Under the pieces are notes generated by a model. The model worked only from the letters and a program-made list of their open reading frames with translations, had not been told where the DNA came from and did not search any database. Source: a virus (Duplodnaviria > Heunggongvirae > Uroviricota > Caudoviricetes). Taken from it: 23,939 bases of DNA. The translations under genes were made by a program, and so were the position numbers. Positions 12,430 through 23,939 of this stretch are shown in pieces; the first letter of the stretch is position 1, and every line of letters begins with the position of its first letter. The stretch lies in the IMG/VR virus record IMGVR_UViG_2823670853_000004, positions 1-23,939 of that record. One strand, 5' to 3'.

Positions 12430-12464
12430 TATAACAAACAAAAAAATTTTGTTTGTTATATTTT
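12430..12464. terminator. Bidirectional hairpin between convergent Q and the GmrSD-like gene; T-run on plus strand
   Basis: Perfect inverted repeat TATAACAAACAAAA (12430-12443), loop AAA, TTTTGTTTGTTATA (12447-12460), followed by TTTT (12461-12464). Stem is AT-rich, so strength is uncertain. The minus-strand stop codon of the GmrSD-like gene (12456-12458) lies inside the right arm. Confidence 0.5.
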
Positions 12465-14039
12465 ACCTGTCATAGCTTTTAAAGCAAGTTCATTTAAATC
12501 CTCTTCGCGCTGGTTTATAAAATCACCATAAGCACTCTTTCCATTCCGTAGATTCGGATGAATCACCGCAGCATCAAAGATCATATCCCTCTCAGCCTCA
12601 TGCACTGTTGGAAAGTACACATCAGGATTCGAATCTGAAATTTGATTATTATCCTGAGCAGTTAAAAATGCAATATTAGCTATTATATTTGACTCATGAA
12701 ATGGAATTCCTTGCCTAGCCAGGTATGCCTTCGGATATATGTGGTGGAATTGTCTTGAATTATATGCTGACAAAGATGTATCAAGGTCAACCACCTTGCC
12801 TGTAATAAAACTCCGTGGAGACAACTGAGCTAACAAGCAAATAGATGCTTTTGCTGCTGAGGAATTAATTCTCCAAGTTTTTCTAAAAAACCCGGTTTCA
12901 ATTTTAGGTACTGGTTGAATATAATCATCTGGAGTACTTATAACGCTATCCATGGCGATAACATCCTCCATAACATAGGTGTTTGTTCCTGCTTTATATC
13001 TTTGCGAAAATGCACAACACCAAAACCATCTTTTAATTGAACTATATTGATAACCCGTTGGGCGAGAGACCTTTGAGAAAAAATAGGTTATAGGTACTAA
13101 CATTATTGGGAATGGTAAAAAAATTGAATTTTTTATTTTTAGATCATTAGCTAAAAAATCAACGGCATTGCGGATACCTCTTTTTAAATCCTCCATTGCG
13201 GATAGAAGAGTTGTTGGATCAATGTCAATCAAAGTATCAGAATCAATCTTCTTATTGATTATTGCCGTCAAACAACGCATCAAAAGAATTTCATCAATCT
13301 GCTCATATCCAACTGACGCAAGATATTCTTTTAATGAATCCATTTCTGTGCGCAAATCAAATTTTTCTGACCATGTCCAAGCCGTTAGCAACTCAATTGT
13401 ACTTAAACTTGTACCAGATGAGTTAATTCTCTGGAATATTCTACAAACTTCTTGATTACTTCTTTCTTTAATCGTAACAATAGGGAACTCATAATCTTTA
13501 AATTTATCAACTAAATTTGCGATTCTATCTTGCTCATCTGCCGGGAATCGTCTTAATTCAGGCAGTAGTTTTGAGGTATCAAGAATACTGCTTAATGCAA
13601 CACTATTTTTTCCTTTTGGTATATCGACAACATTGCAAAAACTATCCGTAGCAGGAATATAATGTATATTAAATCTAGATGCCAAATCACTGTTTTCTGT
13701 TTTCCTGTGGGCATTGAATACTCCAAATAAAGTTGTTAACCGCTGCTGCCCATCCAAAACATAATTAACAGGATAATCTTCTTTCACGTCAGGAAGATGA
13801 AAACCTCCTACATTTCTTTCAAACTTTAACGGTGTCTTTGTTGACCATAATAACAACGAGCCAACAGGGTAACCACTATAAATGGAGTCAATCAAACCTA
13901 ATATCTGCTCATCCGTCCATACGAAATCACGTTGAAACGCAGGAATTTTAATATTTCCACGGGTAACATCATCCAATAAAGATGCTAATCTTTGGTTACC
14001 TGAATCAATCTTTTTCTTAGAGTTTACATTATTTTCCAT
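12456..14039 (-). CDS. DUF262/DUF1524 (GmrSD-family) putative type IV modification-dependent restriction nuclease
   Basis: 527 aa. N-terminal DUF262 motifs IPAFQRDFVW and VLDGQQRLTTLFG; C-terminal DUF1524-type His-Me finger motifs FHHIYPKA and NIAFLTAQDNNQISDSNP. AGGA ribosome-binding site 6 nt upstream. Gene is AT-rich by eye. Confidence 0.8.
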   Translation of the reverse strand: MENNVNSKKKIDSGNQRLASLLDDVTRGNIKIPAFQRDFVWTDEQILGLIDSIYSGYPVGSLLLWSTKTPLKFERNVGGFHLPDVKEDYPVNYVLDGQQRLTTLFGVFNAHRKTENSDLASRFNIHYIPATDSFCNVVDIPKGKNSVALSSILDTSKLLPELRRFPADEQDRIANLVDKFKDYEFPIVTIKERSNQEVCRIFQRINSSGTSLSTIELLTAWTWSEKFDLRTEMDSLKEYLASVGYEQIDEILLMRCLTAIINKKIDSDTLIDIDPTTLLSAMEDLKRGIRNAVDFLANDLKIKNSIFLPFPIMLVPITYFFSKVSRPTGYQYSSIKRWFWCCAFSQRYKAGTNTYVMEDVIAMDSVISTPDDYIQPVPKIETGFFRKTWRINSSAAKASICLLAQLSPRSFITGKVVDLDTSLSAYNSRQFHHIYPKAYLARQGIPFHESNIIANIAFLTAQDNNQISDSNPDVYFPTVHEAERDMIFDAAVIHPNLRNGKSAYGDFINQREEDLNELALKAMTGKI

Positions 14040-14323: not shown

Positions 14324-15001
14324 CTAGAACGTGACAGCCTTGTCAAAGCCAGAAATAATTGTATAAGAAATAGACGAGTTATCAGCCTTGTTCACTTTGA
14401 ACTTGGCACCTTTGTAAGCGATAACGTCACTTCCCTTAGAATCTACAGAAAAATCTGTTGTAAATGCTGCACGAGCCATATCGTTTGCAAATTCACGATA
14501 GGTGAACTTCATTACACCGCCTGCATTTCCATTGTATTCGATAGTCTTAACCAATGAGTTACTAACTCGACACAGCCCATCAGGAACACGTTTGATAGAA
14601 ATTTCTGATGCAGTATAAGAAGTACCATTTGGCGGTGATATCTCATTTTTTGCAGCATCGTAACTAACATAATCAACATAGTTACCGATTTGCCCATAGA
14701 GATTTTTTAACGCAACAGCTTGAGGGTTATGATAATTGCGGTAAATTCCATTCCCCTCACTGCAATATGTACCAGCAGCGATAGAAGACAATGCACCATT
14801 AGCCGCACCAAGTTCTAGTACGTCCGTTTTAAATCCAGTAGCAGATGTGATAATGGGATCGCCCATGTAGGCGGTAGCACTTTGCCCAATAGCAGGCTTC
14901 ACCACTTCAATAGCAGTGATATTTCGGTTAGAAGCATGTGGCACGCAACCAGTTAGGATTACAGCAAGAGATATTGGTAACGCTACATTATTAATTTTCA
15001 T
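14324..15001 (-). CDS. Putative lipoprotein of unknown function (about 225 aa precursor)
   Basis: ORF 14324..15055 trimmed to ATG at 15001: MKINNVALPISLAVILTGC has a signal peptide and lipobox (LTGC). Mature part is Ser/Thr/Asn/Gly/Tyr-rich with alternating-hydrophobic beta-strand character, ends in Phe, two Cys. AT-rich. No family recognised. Confidence 0.6.
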   Translation of the reverse strand: MKINNVALPISLAVILTGCVPHASNRNITAIEVVKPAIGQSATAYMGDPIITSATGFKTDVLELGAANGALSSIAAGTYCSEGNGIYRNYHNPQAVALKNLYGQIGNYVDYVSYDAAKNEISPPNGTSYTASEISIKRVPDGLCRVSNSLVKTIEYNGNAGGVMKFTYREFANDMARAAFTTDFSVDSKGSDVIAYKGAKFKVNKADNSSISYTIISGFDKAVTF

Positions 15002-15025
15002 TTTTAGCCTATTATTCTTTTCTTG

Positions 15026-15060
15026 ACAAAAAACAAGGCGATATCTGATTGACATCGCCT
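15026..15060 (-). terminator. Possible weak terminator between the DinI-like gene and the lipoprotein gene
   Basis: Inverted repeat AGGCGAT/ATCGCCT (15036-15060) with an 11-nt loop, followed on the minus strand by TTGTTTTTTG. Loop is long, so weak. Confidence 0.3.
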
Positions 15061-15701: not shown

Positions 15702-18143
15702 TTAATACAGGTTCCGCCACTTATCATCTTCCTGCAAACGCTGGTTCCGATAGAAGATACGCAGGCCTGCTCCTGACGGAATACTGCCGCCGCGAAGGAG
15801 TAAATCGACCTCTTTCTCGCTGCCATCAAATCCTCTGGATTTCAGTTCATAGACGAGATGCTGTCGTTGATGGTCTGTAATTCGCTGTTTGTAGTCTCTA
15901 CGCCGTTTCGGTTTCACCAGACGTAACCTTGCAGCCAGTTCCCGGCGCTCCTTTTTGTTCATACTGTGCAGGTAATCGTGCAACACCTTGTCATCCATGC
16001 GGGTAATGTCCGTTCTGGGGTCCCCATCAGCTGATTTATCTTTCTCCTGTTGGTTCAAATTTTCAGCAAGGGGACAGTTATTGCCACGAGTCCAAGGGGC
16101 GCAAGCGCCCTGGTCGGCTGCCGCCTCCTGAACGTCAACGGCCTTACGAACCATTTTCCACTTCACCGCATGAGTGCAGATCTTGCCCTCTGCAATGGGT
16201 GACCAGATGCCATAAATACGAATACCGTGATCGCCATATGCGGTCGGTTCTTCGTTGATTTCATAAGCAGTTCTGATGAGGTGATATTTGCGGGGAACCA
16301 GTACGCCGCCCTGCTTCATGATGTAGGTGGCAAAACAACCAGCATCAGCAGCAGCCAGGATTGCATCAAGGCGCGGGTTATCCAGTACCGGCGCACCTGC
16401 TTTTTTGTCCCCCTGTTGCCTTGCCGACTGACCAGCCAGCAATCGCAGTTCACGGTAAGCCTGACGCCCCGGAATGCCAAAGAAGCGGAATTGCTGAACA
16501 CGATGCAGAGACGCCCAGGCATTAACGTATTCAGCGTTATCACGCAGGGATTTACCCGTTTCCTTGCTGATCTCGCCAGCCAGACCACGCCCGTCAATGT
16601 TCTTACTGATGTATTTCGCGATGTAGCTTGTTGGCGTACCTTTGCGCGGGTTTATCAGCTCAGACTTAAAGCGTGGTCCCGTGTTATTACCCAGCTCCTC
16701 GCGGTCTTCACGAATGGCAAACTTACGCAACAAAGCAGTAATGGTGCGGCGATCTTTTTTGCGCATAAAACACAACAGGTGCCAGTGAACTGTACCGTCA
16801 TGATGCGGCTCAGCCACCCGCACGCCATACCAGCGCAATCCGGCTTTGTGCATCGCCTTACGAAATGCAGCAAACATGCCGACCAGATAATCACTGCTTT
16901 GTATTACCGTCGTATTTGTCCAGGTCGGGTTGGGCCTGCCGTTATTTAGCGTGGAATGGAAACGTGACGGACAGGTGATGGTGTAGAAAACGGCGCAGTC
17001 ACCGCGCATTTCCGCGATAAGCTCCAGACCTTTAACACAGGCCATCATCTCATTGCGGCGATGCGCAGGGTTGCTGCTGCTGGCGTTTACCACATCCTCC
17101 ATGTCCAGCGTGTCGCCGTCTTCGTTCACCAGTTCATGAGAACGGAAAAACTCCAGCGACTTACGGCGCTGCTCACGTTTATGCATCACGGCTTCATAGC
17201 TGACATAGGGAGATGCTTTTTTGCTGACCAGGCAAACAGCACGCAACTGCTCTTCCCGCCATTCGCAACGCATCTTCCATAATTTCCGGTACCACCAATC
17301 GGCGCACAACATACGCGCCAGCGAACCCGGAATGAGTTCATAGGGCACGGGTTTACGGCGGTTTCTTTTCCGGCGGAGTTGCTCAAACGCAGGCGGTATG
17401 ACATCTAGTCGCAGGGTTTCTGCTGCCACCTTTTCCCATGTCTTGCGGATTTCTTCTGGCTTAACGTCATCGGTGGCATACAAATCGCCACAAGCTGCAT
17501 CAAGGCACATGCTCATATGCGCAGCAACAAGGGTGGACAGGCGTTTCACCTGATCCTGACTCATTTCAGGCAGAATCAGCAGGCCGTCCAGCCCTTCATG
17601 GCTTGCCATAAAGCGAAAAGAAGTGGATAGCTGACTGTCGCGTACATGCTCCAGTCGTTCCAGACATGGCTTAATCGTCTCACGTAAATAGCGGGAATAA
17701 GCCTTTGGCCTGCCCAGGCTGCTGAAGTATTCAATACGTTGCATCAGCGGCTTGCTGATATGGGAGGGCTGGGCGCTGACGTCTGCCAGAATGACCATGT
17801 CCGGGTTAAAACGCTGCTGCTCATGCGCCAACTTTGCCCGGCTAATGAGCTTATCCTGCTCCATTTCGCGCTGGACAGGATCACGGGATTCATTAAAGAA
17901 ATAACGCTCCCAGACCTGATCACTCAGTGCCTCGCGGCGCAGTTGTTCCTGCTCGTTATCGGTAGCGTACAGAGTGATCAGGTTTGAAAGCGCAGAAACC
18001 GGCGCAACTTCCGCCGGGTCCAGATAAGGGTTAATGGCTTTCTTAGGTAAATTCCACGAATAACCCCCGGCAGAATTCTCAATGCTACCGGAAGTTACAC
18101 TGACAAATGGATCGGCAAGACGGCCTGTGCTGATCTCTGTCAC
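15702..18143 (-). CDS. A: Replication initiation protein / rolling-circle endonuclease (gpA-like)
   Basis: 813 aa in the P2 A position, last gene of the early operon; contains a [12 protein letters not shown]-type Rep motif; start overlaps the upstream stop (ATGA). Confidence 0.9.
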
Positions 18144-19150
18144 TCACAGACTCCTGCATATACACTGCTGCACACCGCTTTATCATTCATGCCTGCCAGC
18201 AGGTCAAACTGCATACCGCCCCGAGTCGTTAAGGCCCAGTCCCGATAAGTTTCAATGCCATAAGCATCAACAGTTATGACTTCGATCCGTTTTTCAGCAC
18301 GGCGCGGATCATGCGTGGATGGAAAGAACGTTGAATTGCCACGTCTTGAACATTCCGCAACCAGTCTTTCCCACTCAGCCACTCGGCGGATTTCTTCTGG
18401 CCAGCGTTGGAAAATCTCTCCAAGTTCTGACTTGCGAGCATGAATGCATGGCATACAACCGACACGACTGCATCCCTGCATATAAAGGGGGTTAGGCTTA
18501 ATGCCATGACGTTTGGCAATAGCAAACACATCCTCATGCAGCCAATTAAGGATCGGACGATAAACATGCAGCCCCAGAGTATTGTCTGCATCGTCCTCCC
18601 ACTCAGGCAACAATGCACGTTCCGGTGATTCCTGCCCCCGGACTCCTTGCCAACTGATTACCTCATCGTATTCATCCAGAGCTGGATCGATTACCTGTGT
18701 ACGTATTGGTTCATGTTTCAGTTCAAAAGTGCAGAAACGAGCTTTTGTTGAAGGGAAGCGACCTTTCCACATGCACAAATCAAGAAACGGAACGCCGGTT
18801 GGTTTAAGGATTTCCAGTGCCCGGTAAATACGTTCCTCAGCCTCATCTGTCGACATACCACATTCCTCAACGAGAGAAATGGGCCACTTTTCCGCAATGA
18901 ATTTACGTTTCCCTTCTATCTGGCGTGTGAAATCCGCTTTGACGCGAATAATCTTGCCCAGCTTTGATTCCAGATAATCCAGATATTCTATTGTCTGTGG
19001 ATGTTCATGACCCGTATCGGCAAATACAGAAATATGCGGAACATCGTTTTCAATGGCTCTTAGCCATTGAGCGAGACTATCTTTGCCACCAGAAGTAGTG
19101 ATGACGTTAATGGTGCCTGAGGCAAAGCAACGCGGATCGATAGCATTCAT
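18140..19150 (-). CDS. PAPS-reductase-family (PP-loop ATP pyrophosphatase, DndC-like) protein
   Basis: 336 aa; N-terminal PP-loop TTSGGKDS; C-terminal Cys cluster ([11 protein letters not shown]); ATGA coupling to Dam upstream and A downstream. Confidence 0.8.
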
Positions 19151-19995
19151 GCGCGTACCTCAACGGTACGGTCAGAGCCGCTGGCAAAATCGACACCAAA
19201 CCACCCAGCTGATTTGGTGGCAATGATTTCTGTTGCAGATTTACTCTCGCCAGCTGACACGCCAATGCTGCGTTTTGTCTTGATGTAGTGGTGAGTGAAA
19301 TTGCGATACAGCGAGCGGATCAGGGATGTGTCACTGTTAGAAACAATGATCGGATGTCCTTCTGATGACCGATGTTCAAGAACGGATGCCAGGTGATACT
19401 GGTCATCTTCAGTGAAGCCGGCAGTGTGATAACCGGAAAACGTACCGTCATAAGGCGGATCGCAATACACAACATCCCCCGCGTGCAACATTGCCAGCGT
19501 TTCATCGAAGCTGGCGCAGATAAATGTTGCCCGCTGGGCTTTTTCTGCAAATGCACGAATTTCTTTTTCAGGGAAATACGGATTTTTATAATTACCGTAG
19601 GGAATGTTGAAATGCCCGCTCTTGTTATAGCGACATAAACCACGGTAACCGTGACGATTGAGATACAGGAAATATACTGCTTTCATGAAATCAGTAATTT
19701 CAGTTGAGTAATTAAACTCCTGCCTTATGTTGTAATAAGCCATCTCCCTGTTTGCGTTCTCAAATAAAACTCTGGCGCGAGATATAAACGATTCACAATC
19801 AGCGGCAACCTTTTTATAGAGGTTGATTAAATCAGGATTAATATCCGCAACCAGATAGCTGGGGTAATCCGTCTCCATCATCACTGCACAGGAACCCGCG
19901 AAAGGTTCAACCAGTCGCGGGCCAGCAGGAAGGTATTTTTTCAGTTCTGCCATAATGGCCGTTTTATTTCCCGCCCATTTCAAGATGGTGCTCAT
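19147..19995 (-). CDS. dam: DNA adenine methyltransferase (Dam family, probable GATC N6-adenine MTase)
   Basis: ORF 19147..20055 trimmed to ATG at 19995 ([11 protein letters not shown], the Dam N-terminal signature); catalytic DPPY motif ([10 protein letters not shown]); AdoMet-binding EPFAGSCAV. Start overlaps the zinc-finger gene stop (ATGA). Confidence 0.85.
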
Positions 19996-20219
19996 ACAGC
20001 ACCTCCGTTGTAATGTTTGCCTTTCAGTTCTGCGATTTCCTGACAGGTAATGCAAAGCTGCACTCCCGGAATGGCGCGGCGTCGTGCTGGCGGAATTGGC
20101 GCTTCACATTCAATGCAAAGTACGCGTGACACGCCCGGTGTTTTGGCACGGGCAGCACGGATATGGCGCTGGCGTTCTTCTTCAACGCGCTGCTGTACGA
20201 GATCCATTGCATCAGCCAT
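19992..20219 (-). CDS. TraR/DksA-family C4 zinc-finger protein
   Basis: 75 aa with CIECEAPIP...CITCQ (Cys-X2-Cys ... Cys-X2-Cys); position corresponds to the small zinc-finger ORF between B and A in P2-family phages. Confidence 0.7.
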   Translation of the reverse strand: MADAMDLVQQRVEEERQRHIRAARAKTPGVSRVLCIECEAPIPPARRRAIPGVQLCITCQEIAELKGKHYNGGAV

Positions 20220-21032: not shown

Positions 21033-21548
21033 TCACAGCAAACCGAATGAAGCACCAAGGCCAGTCATGGTATCAACTGCACTCGCCATCGCCGGGTTAG
21101 CCTGTAAACGGGCCTGCAATGAAACAGCAGCCAGCGCCATCAGTCGTGTTACAGAGTTAATGCTGCTGATAGCATCACGACGACCTGCACTGGTTTTTAC
21201 ATCGCCAGATACCGCACCTGCAGCAACACGCCCGATCTCTGCGGTTGCACTCATGACGTAATGCGGCAGTTTCTCTTTTGCTACCTCATTAATCGGTACA
21301 CATGGCAGACAATGAATCTGTGCCAGAAAACCATCTACCAGCGTTGAATCTTCAGTCAGATCGGTAAGCAGCCAGATTTCTGGTGCGGTTAATAGATGAG
21401 GCTGAGCTGGGTTCAGCTTGTTCCGCAGAATCTGCACATTCATGCCTGCACGTTCTGCCAGTTGCACCAGATTGTGGCGCAGTGCAAATGCACGACAGGC
21501 TTCATCAAAATGTGGATGTTTGGAAACTTGGTAATCAAACATGGTCAA
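21033..21548 (-). CDS. cII: CII-like lysogeny-establishment transcriptional activator (186 CII type)
   Basis: 171 aa; first gene after the Apl/Cox-like gene in the early operon; N-terminus [22 protein letters not shown] and length match my recollection of 186 CII (169 aa). Confidence 0.65.
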
Positions 21549-21574: not shown

Positions 21575-21796
21575 CTAATTAAGGTTTAGATTGCATTCTG
21601 AAAGCGCATCAACGGTCATGGCTGCTATGTTGATCATCACTTTTTCGCGTTTTTTATCTTTGCGCAAACGGTGACGGATAAGGCGTCCGTCAGCCAACAT
21701 GTCATTGATGGTATCGATGGACAGCCCTGTCAGCTCGCTATAGCGCTCAATAGTCACATGAGGCGTGGTAAGAGTGATTGAAATGTTAGGTCTCAT
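21575..21796 (-). CDS. Apl/Cox-like small DNA-binding excisionase/switch regulator
   Basis: 73-aa basic protein, first gene of the early operon, divergent from the repressor gene. Confidence 0.6.
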
Positions 21797-21915
21797 GATG
21801 CAACATTCCTCGTTTAATGATGATTAATCAGGACGAATACGGATCGTTTGTATTTTGTGAACACCATAAACATACGATCGCACAATGAAATCGTCAAGAT
21901 AAAAGTTCACTTGGA
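21797..21915. promoter_or_regulatory. Lysis/lysogeny switch region between divergent Apl/Cox-like and CI-like genes
   Basis: 119-bp AT-rich intergenic region with an imperfect inverted repeat GATCGTTTGTATTTTGTG ... CACCATAAACATACGATCG (about 21848-21886) that could be repressor operators. Promoters not mapped. Confidence 0.4.
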
Positions 21916-22491
21916 GTGACCATGAATTTGGAGAAAGGCGGACGAGGCGCTATAGAGCGCATGGTAGAAGCTTATGGATTCAAAACCCGACAGGCGTTGT
22001 GCGATCATTTAGGAATCTCTAAAAGTACACTCGCCACACGCTACATGCGTGACTCATTCCCAGCAGAATGGGTAATCCAGTGCGCCCTTGAAACGGGCAC
22101 CTCGCTTAATTGGCTCACAACCGGACATGGTTCAAAGCAAACTTCAGGTAATACAAATACTATGGAAGTTGCTAAATATGTATTATCTGATGGTGCCTTG
22201 CGTGAAGACGGTTTTTATATTTTTGATAAGGGATTTCTACCCTCTACGTTTAAAAAACCTTTTGTCATCACAGATAACAATTCTGAATTTATTTGTGATA
22301 AAGAATTTGATGATATACGTGATGGTAAATGGGTAATAAGTATTGATGGCGAAGTAACGATCCGTGACATTACTCGTTTACCCGGTGGAAGAATCTTCGT
22401 CGAGGGTGGAAACAGAGCCTTCGAATGTAAGATAGAAGACATTGAAATAATTGGTAAAATTATAAGTTTAACAGTCAAGTATGTTAAATAG
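21916..22491 (+). CDS. cI: Immunity repressor, 186 CI type
   Basis: 191 aa; GGAG ribosome-binding site 5 nt upstream; N-terminal helix-turn-helix region (EAYGF...CALETGTSLNWLTTGHG) and C-terminal LPGGRIFVEGGNRAFECKIEDIE resemble 186 CI as I recall it; far longer than the 99-aa P2 C repressor. Confidence 0.8.
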   Translation: MTMNLEKGGRGAIERMVEAYGFKTRQALCDHLGISKSTLATRYMRDSFPAEWVIQCALETGTSLNWLTTGHGSKQTSGNTNTMEVAKYVLSDGALREDGFYIFDKGFLPSTFKKPFVITDNNSEFICDKEFDDIRDGKWVISIDGEVTIRDITRLPGGRIFVEGGNRAFECKIEDIEIIGKIISLTVKYVK

Positions 22492-22506
22492 TACCGGGAG
22501 GAAACT

Positions 22507-22698
22507 ATGCTTGGTAAGGTATTTTTTGTGGTTTTGTCATGTTCTTTGTTATTAAACCCACTAACTACCTATGCTAGAAATTATCCCTGCTCAGGGAAAA
22601 AGGGAGGTGTTTCTCACTGTACCTCAGATGGCAAATTCGTTTGCAATGATGGAACTATTAGTAAATCCAAAAAAATCTGTACTAAAAACTCACGATAA
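22507..22698 (+). CDS. Small secreted Cys-rich protein (63-aa precursor), unknown function
   Basis: GGAGG ribosome-binding site 7 nt upstream; hydrophobic signal peptide ([19 protein letters not shown]); about 40-aa Lys/Gly/Ser/Thr-rich mature peptide with four Cys; AT-rich; sits between cI and int. Confidence 0.5.
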
Positions 22699-22886
22699 CT
22701 TTTGCTTTTATATCTGCGTCTAAAATAAAAATGAGCCGCAGGTTAACCGCAAAAGTTACATGCTCACATAGCAAAAAGAATAGCCAACTTCATTATGGCT
22801 TCAGTGAGATGTATGGTCGTAGGATTTCATACATTGACACTGGTTATACATACAGTAAAAATGCTCTCTACTGGAGGGCATTTTTT

Positions 22887-23939
22887 ATGGCAGTACGAAA
22901 ACTCACCACAGGGAAATGGCTTTGCGAATGTTACCCCGCCGGACGAAGTGGGCGTCGTGTGCGTAAACAATTCGCCACCAAAGGCGAAGCTCTGGCTTTT
23001 GAGCGTCACACTATGGAAGAAACCGAATCAAAGCCATGGCTGGGCGAATCAGTGGATCGTCGAACCCTGAAAGACGTGGTTGAGCTATGGTTCAAACTAC
23101 ATGGTAAATCTCTGACTGCTGGGCAGCATGTCTATGACAAATTGCTGCTGATGGTTGACGCTCTGGGCAATCCTCTTGCAACCGATCTCACCTCTAAAAT
23201 GTTTGCCCACTATCGAGATAAACGCCTGACAGGCGAGATCTACTTCAGCGAGAAATGGAAGAAAGGAGCAAGCCCGGTCACCATTAACCTGGAGCAAAGC
23301 TATCTAAGTAGTGTTTTTAGCGAACTATCCCGTCTGGGCGAATGGTCGTATCCGAACCCACTGGAGAACATGCGAAAATTCACCATCGCAGAAAAAGAGA
23401 TGGCATGGCTTACCCATGAGCAGATTGTTGAATTACTGGCTGATTGCAAACGTCAGGACCCAATTCTAGCACTGGTAGTTAAGATATGCTTAAGCACAGG
23501 CGCACGCTGGCGAGAAGCCGTAAATCTTACTCGTTCACAGGTGACCAAATACCGAATTACCTTTGTAAGAACGAAGGGGAAGAAAAACAGAAGCATCCCT
23601 ATCAGTAAAGAGCTTTACGAAGAGATCATGGCGCTTGATGGGTTCAATTTCTTCACAGACTGCTATTTTCAATTTTTATCCGTGATGGAAAAAACGTCTA
23701 TCGTGCTCCCTCGCGGTCAACTCACACACGTTCTGCGCCATACGTTTGCGGCGCACTTCATGATGTCGGGTGGAAACATTCTGGCCTTACAAAAAATTCT
23801 CGGACACCACGATATAAAAATGACTATGCGTTACGCACATCTGGCACCGGATCATCTGGAAACGGCGCTCCGTTTCAATCCTCTGGCAACGCTGCCAAGT
23901 GGCGACAAAGTGGCGGCAGCGGTTGGCATTACCCCGTAA
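22887..23939 (+). CDS. int: Tyrosine site-specific integrase (P2/186 Int family)
   Basis: ORF 22731..23939 trimmed to ATG at 22887 (MAVRKLTTGKW..., GGAGGG 7 nt upstream). Catalytic-domain motifs LSTGARWREA and HVLRHTFAAHFMMSGGNILALQKILGHHDIKMTMRYAHLAPDHL. Stop codon is the last three bases of the window. Confidence 0.85.
   Translation: MAVRKLTTGKWLCECYPAGRSGRRVRKQFATKGEALAFERHTMEETESKPWLGESVDRRTLKDVVELWFKLHGKSLTAGQHVYDKLLLMVDALGNPLATDLTSKMFAHYRDKRLTGEIYFSEKWKKGASPVTINLEQSYLSSVFSELSRLGEWSYPNPLENMRKFTIAEKEMAWLTHEQIVELLADCKRQDPILALVVKICLSTGARWREAVNLTRSQVTKYRITFVRTKGKKNRSIPISKELYEEIMALDGFNFFTDCYFQFLSVMEKTSIVLPRGQLTHVLRHTFAAHFMMSGGNILALQKILGHHDIKMTMRYAHLAPDHLETALRFNPLATLPSGDKVAAAVGITP

What the first reader, a model, noticed from the sequence alone, without database searches (positions are those of the whole stretch)
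22507..22698. Small signal-peptide-bearing, four-cysteine peptide gene between the repressor and integrase
A 63-aa ORF with a strong ribosome-binding site, a clear signal peptide and a Lys-rich mature peptide of about 40 aa with four Cys lies in an AT-rich stretch between cI and int, a typical lysogenic-conversion slot expressed in the lysogen. It could be a secreted or periplasmic factor (exclusion, toxin or microcin-like, or envelope modulator).
Basis: partly seen in the sequence, partly recalled or inferred. Interest (0 to 1): 0.4.

Follow-up and report, generated by a model that had tools for sequence, protein, structure and literature searches.

The report
Prophage-borne YdcA-family periplasmic mini-protein
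The small gene is real: it sits just after the repressor gene of a P2/186-like E. coli prophage and encodes an exported, disulfide-knotted 40-residue protein of the already catalogued YdcA family, whose function nobody has yet established.

Summary
ORF 22507-22698 (+) has a GGGAGG ribosome-binding site, a Sec signal peptide cut after Ala23, and a 40-aa basic mature peptide with four Cys. It lies 15 nt after cI and 188 nt before int, in a 35-37% GC stretch.

It is not an orphan. The same position in RefSeq carries a 63-aa "YdcA family protein" (WP_000900883.1). It matches Pfam PF27300, NCBIfam NF007463 (above cut-off) and PHROG 6000. The core is under strong purifying selection.

Relatives sit downstream of the repressor in 186-like prophages of several enterobacterial genera, in prophages of Beta- and Gammaproteobacteria with XRE-type regulators, and unannotated in Haemophilus phages HP2/S2 (absent from HP1). 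They also occur in other phages, in plasmids and as chromosomal genes such as E. coli ydcA.

Two leads to function came out:
- The domain is homologous to the lobes of Dis2, an outer-membrane-facing part of the Legionella Dot/Icm secretion machine.
- It is fused to three unrelated nuclease folds.

My best guess is a lysogen-expressed periplasmic protein that binds DNA or another polyanion, perhaps acting on incoming DNA. This is inference only. Toxin or microcin readings are not supported. The gene is known; its function is open. Interest is moderate to low.

The parts
21916..22491 (+). cI repressor gene (186-type CI), first gene of the lysogenic operon; context for the finding
   Evidence: Pfam Phage_CI_repr 2.8e-33 and Phage_CI_C 5.4e-29. 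RefSeq annotates 'phage repressor protein CI'.
22496..22501 (+). Shine-Dalgarno GGGAGG, 5 nt upstream of the ATG
   Evidence: Read directly from the sequence.
22507..22698 (+). YdcA-family gene: 63-aa precursor plus stop codon
   Evidence: ORF list. NF007463 115.8 bits against cut-off 93. phrog_6000. Precomputed PF27300 'YdcA' on homologues. RefSeq WP_000900883.1 'YdcA family protein' at the same position. Purifying selection.
22507..22575 (+). Sec signal peptide (aa 1-23), predicted cleavage TYA|RN
   Evidence: The signal region is variable but always hydrophobic, and Ala23 is nearly invariant across the family. AF2 models it as a helix at residues 4-15 with pLDDT about 64-65 over residues 1-20. 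The cleavage site is inferred, not measured.
22576..22695 (+). Mature 40-aa basic peptide; YdcA domain core C28-x9-C38-x7-C46-x11-C58
   Evidence: Four Cys conserved (C38 and C46 invariant, C28 and C58 at least 90%), with invariant K32, F44, G49, S52, S54, K55. The spacing C-x9-C-x6/7-C-x11-C recurs in 209 domains. pLDDT 84-91 for residues 31-60. Top PDB fold and sequence hit is Dis2.
22699..22886 (+). AT-rich, strongly structured spacer between the YdcA gene and int
   Evidence: RNA fold of 22690-22900: -64.1 kcal/mol, z = -6.05 against shuffles. No Rfam family reached its gathering score.
22857..22885 (+). 13-bp hairpin followed by a U-run, containing the int Shine-Dalgarno (GGAGGG, 22873-22878), directly before the int ATG
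   Evidence: Centroid and MFE structure and the sequence. A role as terminator or RBS-sequestering element is inference.
22887..23939 (+). Integrase (P2/186-type tyrosine recombinase); last gene of the operon, at the end of the window
   Evidence: Pfam Int_N 3.2e-32 and Phage_integrase 7.2e-22. phrog_1 8e-75.

Best explanation
The ORF is an accessory ('moron') gene of a 186-like, P2-family prophage.

Shown:
- It encodes a member of the YdcA family (PF27300).
- The core is under strong purifying selection.
- YdcA genes recur directly or closely downstream of prophage repressor genes.
- The domain is homologous to the lobes of Legionella Dis2.
- In other bacteria the domain is fused to three unrelated nuclease folds.

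Inferred:
- It is transcribed with cI from the lysogenic promoter, so it is made continuously in the lysogen.
- The precursor is exported by Sec and cut after Ala23.
- DsbA-type oxidation gives a 40-aa, two-disulfide, basic periplasmic mini-protein.

Most likely mechanism (inference): the domain is an extracytoplasmic binding module for nucleic acid or another polyanion. The free-standing prophage copy would sit in the periplasm of the lysogen and bind DNA that crosses or enters it, for example from superinfecting phage, conjugation or uptake. That would give an envelope-level exclusion or DNA-handling phenotype, not killing of other cells.
For: Identity:
- NF007463 above cut-off, phrog_6000, PF27300, RefSeq name.
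- Coding and constrained: pS 0.56-1.0 against pN 0.02-0.28. The signal region varies while the core is near-invariant.

Lysogen expression:
- 15-nt gap after cI, with no + strand terminator predicted between them.
- In HP2 the homologue's ATG overlaps the cI stop, downstream of the annotated pL promoter.

Recurrent position after the repressor:
- cI-YdcA-KAP NTPase-int in E. coli, Citrobacter and Klebsiella.
- cI-orf143-YdcA-int in Hafnia.
- 7 of 80 species-level loci are 186-like.
- Prophages of Beta- and Gammaproteobacteria with XRE-type HTH regulators.
- HP2 and S2 have it, while HP1, which shares 94.7% identical cI DNA, diverges exactly at the cI stop.

Link to nucleic acid:
- The only enzyme domains found fused to the YdcA domain are nucleases: Endonuclease_NS, SNase and PLDc_2. 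Nine of the best 120 hits carry PF01223.
- Nuclease neighbours: a GIY-YIG nuclease and an SNase.
- The core is positively charged, mean +3.4, with invariant Lys.
- Tandem repeats occur, joined by basic linkers or followed by Lys-rich tails.

Periplasmic disulfide fold: Dis2 lobes carry disulfides in the solved structure (PMC8486379). Homology is supported.
Against: No experiment shows DNA binding for any family member.

Dis2, the only member with a solved structure, sits on the outer-membrane-facing surface of the Dot/Icm cap. It contacts the proteins DotK, DotC and DotD, not DNA or the channel (PMC12716638).

The domains fused to nucleases are only weakly basic (+1 to +3).

Nuclease fusions are a minority (5 of 149 representatives). 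They could reflect a shared location rather than a shared substrate.

The very high conservation between phage and chromosomal copies argues against an arms-race exclusion factor aimed at particular phages.

Chromosomal ydcA has been linked to acid and 3-hydroxypropionate tolerance, not to DNA (PMC7642389).

Expression in the lysogen was not measured.
Confidence: 0.4

Rival explanations
1. Envelope adaptor or tether. The YdcA domain would be a protein- or outer-membrane-binding module, as Dis2 is in the Dot/Icm cap. The prophage copy would dock onto outer-membrane lipoproteins or envelope-spanning machines of the host. It would thereby alter receptor availability, secretion or conjugation machines, or envelope stability. 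The nuclease fusions would then simply anchor those enzymes near the outer membrane.
For: - Homology to Dis2.
- Dis2 faces the outer membrane and buries 350-840 square angstroms with each of DotK, DotC and DotD (PMC12716638).
- YdcA-domain proteins occur inside a T6SS cluster and fused to a VasL domain.
- A YdcA gene sits next to traD and mobA on 3.9-4.1 kb mobilizable plasmids.
Against: - Every enzyme domain found fused to it is a nuclease. No protease, glycosidase or other periplasmic enzyme appeared, which a generic anchor would predict.
- E. coli lacks DotK, DotC and DotD, so any partner would have to be different.
- Loss of Dis2 has almost no phenotype (PMC12716638).
Confidence: 0.25
2. 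Host-fitness conversion factor. The prophage would supply a second, constitutively expressed copy of a housekeeping-type periplasmic stress protein. It would do the same job as chromosomal YdcA (envelope, acid or organic-acid tolerance), with no role against incoming DNA.
For: - Chromosomal orthologue-like copies sit among core genes: cybB-ydcA-trg in E. coli, rplS-linked in Atlantibacter and Citrobacter, and hom/cysS-linked elsewhere.
- Phage and chromosomal cores are nearly identical.
- Deleting ydcA sensitised E. coli W to 3-hydroxypropionate. That paper also describes ydcA as acid-induced under YdcI control (PMC7642389).
Against: - The molecular activity of chromosomal YdcA is itself unknown (bioRxiv 10.1101/2024.02.12.579971; PMC13541209).
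- This reading does not explain the nuclease fusions or the repeated capture by phages and plasmids.
Confidence: 0.2
3. Secreted antibacterial peptide (microcin-, defensin- or toxin-like), or a small protease inhibitor resembling plant Pin-II inhibitors.
For: - It is a small, cationic, disulfide-rich peptide with a leader.
- There are weak, non-significant matches to Pin-II proteinase inhibitors, E 0.11-1.8.
Against: - The leader is a Sec signal, not a double-glycine leader.
- No exporter, immunity or modification gene lies next to it.
- The Cys pattern does not match Pin-II, and the residues aligned with the Pin-II reactive loop (TKNS) are not conserved in the family.
- The domain is fused internally to enzymes and repeated in tandem.
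Confidence: 0.05

Closest known systems
E. coli K-12 YdcA and the YdcA family (Pfam PF27300; NCBIfam NF007462/NF007463, PRK10040; PHROG 6000)
   Same: It has the same architecture: a signal peptide followed by a roughly 35-aa core, PCSGKKGG(V/I)SHC...KF(V/I)CNDG(T/S)xSxSKKxC, with four Cys. It scores above the curated NF007463 cut-off. RefSeq gives it this name.
   Different: This copy is prophage-borne and lies in the cI-int operon. It is not the chromosomal cybB-ydcA-trg locus, whose copies are about 57% identical over residues 10-59. The function of the whole family is unknown (bioRxiv 10.1101/2024.02.12.579971; PMC13541209).
[quoted passage not shown]
   Same: It shares the CSK-GG-x-x-C...VCN(D/N)G-x-x-S motif and is exported.
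- It is the top PDB hit by sequence (E 3e-5 to 8e-6).
- It is the top PDB hit by fold (Foldseek probability 0.95, 38% identity).
- hhalign gives 97.4% probability.
- Two-lobed YdcA proteins with a 'KMGGI...CNNG' motif bridge the two groups.
   Different: - Dis2 is a tandem of two lobes with five disulfides and extra Cys, built into a 13-fold secretion-machine cap (PMC8486379).
- The phage protein is a single free lobe in a host that has no Dot/Icm system.
- The two Dis2 papers I read describe it as specific to Legionella or Legionellales, and neither mentions YdcA.
Ltp of Streptococcus phage TP-J34 and Sie2009 of lactococcal phages: superinfection-exclusion genes between int and the repressor (recalled from my own knowledge, not tested here)
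   Same: These are small, signal-peptide-bearing extracytoplasmic proteins. They are encoded in the lysogeny module between integrase and repressor and are expressed in the lysogen.
   Different: - There is no sequence or fold relationship.
- Those are Gram-positive lipoproteins or membrane proteins that block DNA injection by particular phages.
- No exclusion phenotype is known for any YdcA protein.
- The high conservation of YdcA is unlike typical exclusion proteins.
Lambda rexAB-type arrangement: an accessory gene co-transcribed with the repressor (established knowledge)
   Same: It is an accessory gene placed in the repressor transcript, so it would be expressed in the prophage state.
   Different: Rex is a cytoplasmic and membrane abortive-infection system. 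Here the product is a periplasmic mini-protein.

Membership tests
YdcA family (PF27300 / NF007463) | Scores above the curated family threshold | tested here: met
   NF007463 gives 115.8 bits against a cut-off of 93, E 5.3e-34, covering profile positions 1-58 of 58. PF27300 is precomputed on 98%-identical P0001 and on 58 of the 64 hits. PF27300 is absent from the local Pfam copy, so it could not be scored directly.
YdcA family (PF27300 / NF007463) | N-terminal Sec signal peptide with an A-x-A-type cleavage site before the domain | tested here: met
   A hydrophobic h-region is present, and Ala23 is conserved in at least 90% of 38 homologues. No SignalP tool was available, so this was judged from sequence and alignment.
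YdcA family (PF27300 / NF007463) | Four conserved Cys with spacing C-x9-C-x6/7-C-x11-C, plus the GKKGG and SxSKK motifs | tested here: met
   C28, C38, C46 and C58 are present. Invariant K32, F44, G49, S52, S54 and K55 are present. The same spacing occurs in 209 domains.
YdcA family (PF27300 / NF007463) | Periplasmic location and disulfide bonds in the mature protein | not testable with these tools
   This is inferred from the signal peptide and from the disulfides seen in the homologue Dis2 (PMC8486379).
Dis2-like components of the type IVB secretion outer-membrane cap | Homologous lobe fold and sequence | tested here: met
   phmmer/hmmsearch E 3e-5, 4.5e-5 and 8e-6. Foldseek rank 1, probability 0.95, 38% identity. 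hhalign 97.4%. Part of the HMMER score comes from aligned signal peptides.
Dis2-like components of the type IVB secretion outer-membrane cap | Two-lobe architecture and association with Dot/Icm (DotC/DotD/DotK) genes | tested here: not met
   The protein has a single lobe of 63 aa. It is encoded in a P2/186-like prophage with no type IV secretion genes in the window.
Class II microcins / secreted bacteriocins | Double-glycine leader, with a dedicated ABC exporter and an immunity gene adjacent | tested here: not met
   The leader is Sec-type and ends in TYA|R. The neighbours are cI and int only.
Prophage superinfection-exclusion proteins (functional class, e.g. Ltp, Sie2009, Cor) | Encoded in the lysogeny module and expressed from the prophage | tested here: inconclusive
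   The position is met: 15 nt after cI, on the same strand, with no predicted terminator between. Expression was not measured.
Prophage superinfection-exclusion proteins (functional class, e.g. Ltp, Sie2009, Cor) | Blocks infection or DNA entry by other phages | not testable with these tools
   This needs plating and DNA-injection assays with a deletion lysogen. There is no PADLOC model hit.

The most novel reading that the evidence does not exclude
The YdcA domain would be a previously unrecognised, disulfide-stabilised, extracytoplasmic nucleic-acid-binding module. Free periplasmic proteins, periplasmic or secreted nucleases of three folds, and the Dis2 subunit of the Dot/Icm machine would all share it. 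Temperate phages of several proteobacterial classes would place a free copy in their repressor operon so that lysogens intercept foreign DNA in the periplasm. This would act against phage superinfection, conjugation or natural transformation.
Probability: 0.2. Interest if true: 0.7.

Novelty: already known. Interest (0 to 1): 0.3.

Why it matters
The gene itself is already catalogued, so the finding does not reveal a new kind of element.

Its value is as an entry point to an uncharacterised but widespread mini-protein family, with 455 clusters at 50% identity. That family links a conserved lysogen-expressed prophage gene, the orphan E. coli gene ydcA, periplasmic nucleases, and Dis2. The two Dis2 papers I read describe Dis2 as specific to Legionella or Legionellales and of unknown function.

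If the domain binds DNA or a conserved envelope component, that would explain a recurrent cargo of P2-like prophages. It would also give a testable function to ydcA and Dis2.

A practical by-product is an unannotated 60-aa gene in the reference genome of Haemophilus phage HP2.

Tried and rejected
- **Local Pfam scan.** It gave only a sub-threshold hit, GULLO2-like_3rd at E 0.075. PF27300 is newer than the local copy.
- **Pin-II proteinase inhibitor similarity.** E was 0.11-1.8 and the Cys pattern and reactive-loop residues are not conserved, so I rejected it.
- **Lipoprotein reading.** Cys12 in a 'VLSC' context is not conserved in relatives, so I rejected it.
- **Rfam over the whole window.** Nothing reached a gathering score, so the structured spacer is not a known RNA family.
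- **PADLOC.** There was no model for the peptide.
- **The gene named 'ydcA' in the gonococcal genetic island.** It turned up in the literature search. I judged the name coincidental from my memory of how that island's genes were named, and did not follow it.
- **The UniRef name 'Conjugal transfer protein' on cluster members.** I did not rely on it. The only conjugation link seen is adjacency to traD and mobA on small Acinetobacter plasmids.
- **Search for a conserved partner gene across 80 species-level loci.** Apart from prophage repressor modules and lineage-specific chromosomal neighbours, there was none.
- **Viral-contig scan.** The 80 loci returned were all 98-100% identical at protein level, apparently the same prophage type, and added no diversity.
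- **Literature.** No paper in the library assigns a function to YdcA.

Full report
**1. Observation**

A GGGAGG Shine-Dalgarno lies at 22496-22501, 5 nt before the ATG. The cI stop codon TAG is at 22489-22491, which leaves a 15-nt intergenic gap.

The protein reads [23 protein letters not shown]|[40 protein letters not shown]. The predicted mature part is 40 aa with 7 Lys, 2 Arg, 2 Asp and 4 Cys, pI 9.7. GC content is 0.35-0.37 from about 22100 to 22900, against about 0.45-0.52 in most flanking windows.

The surrounding genes confirm a 186-like lysogeny switch of the Peduoviridae:
- CI (Phage_CI_repr plus Phage_CI_C) at 21916-22491 (+).
- A Cox/Apl-like gene at 21575-21796 (-).
- CII (Phage_CP76) at 21033-21548 (-).
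- Integrase at 22887-23939 (+).

In complete E. coli genomes the prophage sits next to rcdA.

**2. It is a real gene of a named family**

- The peptide scores 115.8 bits (E 5e-34) against NCBIfam NF007463, whose cut-off is 93.
- It scores E 2e-34 against PHROG 6000, a family of unknown function.
- RefSeq annotates the same position as the 63-aa 'YdcA family protein' WP_000900883.1.
- Homologues carry the precomputed Pfam family PF27300, named YdcA.

An alignment of 38 homologues shows a freely varying signal region. It is followed by a nearly invariant Ala at the cleavage site and a nearly invariant core, [34 protein letters not shown], with all four Cys conserved. The fifth Cys, in the signal peptide, is not conserved, so a lipoprotein reading is rejected.

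In the 28 core codons, synonymous sites are saturated (pS 0.56-1.0) while pN is 0.02-0.28. Window versus the E. coli/Citrobacter variant L087, for example, shows 18 synonymous and 2 non-synonymous differences. The ORF is conserved as coding.

**3. Distribution and context**

The 21800-23000 segment is at least 80% covered in 591 of 5426 complete E. coli genomes. A profile search of 1.84 billion cluster representatives finds 455 family members at E of 1e-3 or better. A scan of one genome per species finds 185 loci, of which 80 were returned. They come from Alpha-, Beta- and Gammaproteobacteria, plus a few metagenome bins labelled otherwise.

The gene recurs downstream of prophage repressors:

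| Arrangement | Host |
|---|---|
| cI-YdcA-int | this window, E. coli |
| cI-YdcA-KAP NTPase-int | E. coli, Citrobacter, Klebsiella |
| cI-orf143-YdcA-int | Hafnia |
| 186-like loci of other enterobacteria | Buttiauxella, Yersinia, Atlantibacter |
| XRE-type HTH regulator, 0-2 small genes, then YdcA, in several loci next to P2-like tail genes | Iodobacter, Comamonas, Aquabacterium, Oceanisphaera |

The KAP NTPase matches the PADLOC candidate defence gene PDC-S20 at E 1e-171.

In Haemophilus phage HP2 (NC_003315) and phage S2, an unannotated 60-aa homologue starts with an ATG that overlaps the cI stop codon. It lies downstream of the annotated pL promoter. HP1 shares 94.7% identical cI DNA but diverges exactly at the end of cI and lacks the gene. 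Klebsiella phage 4LV2017 has a closely similar int 5' end (95% over the 172 nt compared) but different cargo in the slot.

So the slot between the repressor and int is a cargo hotspot, and YdcA is one of its recurrent occupants.

Elsewhere the gene appears in several settings:
- In the structural-gene regions of Moraxella and Acinetobacter phages.
- On large Acinetobacter and Rhizobium plasmids.
- Between traD and a 243-aa ORF on 3.9-4.1 kb MOBQ plasmids.
- Inside a T6SS cluster, next to a GIY-YIG nuclease.
- As a chromosomal gene among core genes. E. coli has cybB-ydcA-trg. Atlantibacter and Citrobacter have an rplS-linked copy. Other taxa have a hom/cysS-linked copy.

No universal partner gene exists.

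**4. Leads to function**

(a) *Homology to Dis2.* The only PDB relative is chain AN of 7MUC/7MUD. This is Dis2 (Lpg0823) of the Legionella Dot/Icm outer-membrane cap.
- phmmer gives E 3e-5.
- Family profiles give 4.5e-5 and 8e-6.
- Foldseek of the AlphaFold model ranks it first, with probability 0.95 and 38% identity, although E is only 0.16. The model has pLDDT 84-91 over residues 31-60.
- hhalign of the Dis2 N-lobe against the family profile gives 97.4% probability.
- Two-lobed YdcA proteins with 'KMGGI...CNNG' motifs bridge the two groups.

Dis2 consists of two similar lobes pinned by five disulfides (PMC8486379). [quoted passage not shown] It is dispensable and is described as specific to Legionella or Legionellales. 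That paper does not mention YdcA (PMC12716638). Part of the HMMER score comes from aligned signal peptides, so I put the homology at about 0.8, not at certainty.

(b) *Domain fusions.* Longer family members carry the signal peptide and YdcA domain in front of:
- Endonuclease_NS (E 8e-33 and 6e-24),
- SNase (5e-24),
- a single-HKD PLD-like domain of the Nuc type (5e-19).

Among 149 representatives, every enzyme fusion is a nuclease. The non-enzyme partners are DUF4124, PBCV basic adaptor, VasL and TerY_C. Among the best 120 hits of a second database search, nine carry PF27300 plus PF01223. One tandem-repeat member also matches DUF3761 (PF12587) in the precomputed Pfam list.

Three unrelated nuclease folds share only their substrate and their compartment. 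The domain therefore relates to one of those two. Because no other class of periplasmic enzyme is found fused, I favour the substrate.

The core is positively charged (mean +3.4) with invariant Lys. Some members are tandem repeats joined by Ser/Lys linkers or followed by Lys-rich tails.

**5. Mechanism**

Shown: family membership, selective constraint, position in repressor operons, homology to Dis2, and the nuclease fusions.

Inferred: co-transcription with cI, Sec export with cleavage after Ala23, and two disulfides.

Proposed: the free-standing periplasmic domain binds nucleic acid or another polyanion. In a lysogen it would act on DNA in the periplasm, giving exclusion or DNA handling. I give this about 0.4.

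The main rival, at 0.25, takes Dis2 at face value. It reads the domain as an outer-membrane-proximal protein adaptor, with the nuclease fusions serving only as anchoring.

A third reading, at 0.2, is a fitness factor equivalent to chromosomal YdcA. Deleting ydcA sensitised E. coli W to 3-hydroxypropionate, and the gene is reported as acid-induced (PMC7642389). Its molecular role is still unknown in 2024-2026 papers (bioRxiv 10.1101/2024.02.12.579971; PMC13541209).

Toxin, microcin or protease-inhibitor readings get about 0.05. The leader is Sec-type, and no exporter or immunity gene is present. The Pin-II similarity is at chance level and its key residues are not conserved.

The very high sequence conservation between phage, plasmid and chromosomal copies suggests a conserved ligand rather than a fast-evolving phage target. 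That tempers the exclusion idea.

**6. Comparison with what is known, and novelty**

The protein is a member of the YdcA family, and every defining feature I could test is met. It is homologous to Dis2 lobes but is not a Dis2-type machine subunit, because it has a single lobe and no type IV secretion context.

By position it resembles accessory genes of lysogeny modules such as Ltp, Sie2009 and rexAB. I recall these from my own knowledge and did not test them. It has no sequence relationship to them.

The gene and its family are already in the databases, so I rate novelty as 'already known'.

Three things appear not to have been described in the papers I could read:
- the link between the family and Dis2,
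- the nuclease fusions,
- the conserved placement after the repressor, including the unannotated HP2 gene.

**7. Verdict**

The gene is ordinary as a catalogued feature, but it is a reasonable handle on an uncharacterised family.

Noticed in passing
window 22857-22885 (within spacer 22699-22886): A 13-bp hairpin followed by a U-run encloses the int Shine-Dalgarno (GGAGGG, 22873-22878) and ends one base before the int ATG (22887). The whole spacer folds far better than shuffles (z = -6.05). A TTGACA-17-AAAAAT promoter-like site lies at 22834-22862. This may be a terminator, or an RBS-sequestering element that keeps int expression low in the lysogen.
   Followed up: partly
window 22487-22459 (- strand): A near-consensus sigma-70 promoter-like site (TTAACA-17-TATAAT, 11 of 12 matches) lies inside the 3' end of cI and points antisense to cI. 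It could be a chance match in AT-rich DNA.
   Followed up: no
[not shown]
   Followed up: yes
L087 5198-6529, L091 4198-5529: Related 186-like prophages of E. coli, Citrobacter and Klebsiella carry a 443-aa KAP-family NTPase between the YdcA gene and int. It matches the PADLOC candidate defence gene PDC-S20 at E 1e-171. The cI-int slot is therefore a hotspot for defence genes and other cargo.
   Followed up: partly
window 12456-14039 (-): A 527-aa protein with a GmrSD_N (DUF262) domain (E 2.8e-35) matches PADLOC PDC-M55C (E 1.6e-64). It lies between the portal gene and the replication gene A region, together with an unassigned 243-aa ORF at 14324-15055 (-). It is likely anti-phage cargo of the prophage.
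   Followed up: partly
window 18140-19150 (-) and 19147-20055 (-): A PAPS-reductase-domain protein (weak PADLOC hits to SspD, BrxP and DndC) sits directly next to a Dam-type methyltransferase ORF and downstream of replication gene A. I did not score the window's methyltransferase ORF itself. The equivalent genes in relatives L087 and L093 carry MethyltransfD12.
   Followed up: no
proteins P0212, P0172, P0122, P0216; L182 4926-6727: The YdcA domain is fused N-terminally to Endonuclease_NS, SNase and PLD-type nuclease domains. In a Citrobacter plasmid T6SS cluster, a 133-aa YdcA-domain protein sits directly upstream of a GIY-YIG nuclease.
   Followed up: partly
PDB 7MUC/7MUD chain AN (Dis2, Lpg0823): The two papers I read describe Dis2 as specific to Legionella or Legionellales and of unknown function. 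It appears to be a tandem duplication of the widespread YdcA domain (hhalign 97.4%).
   Followed up: partly
L002 and L003 (Acinetobacter plasmids pApiMCR53a, 3.9 kb, and pGFJ6, 4.1 kb): These tiny MOBQ mobilizable plasmids have only five or six genes. One of them is a YdcA-family gene, placed between traD and a 243-aa ORF that gave no significant Pfam match.
   Followed up: partly
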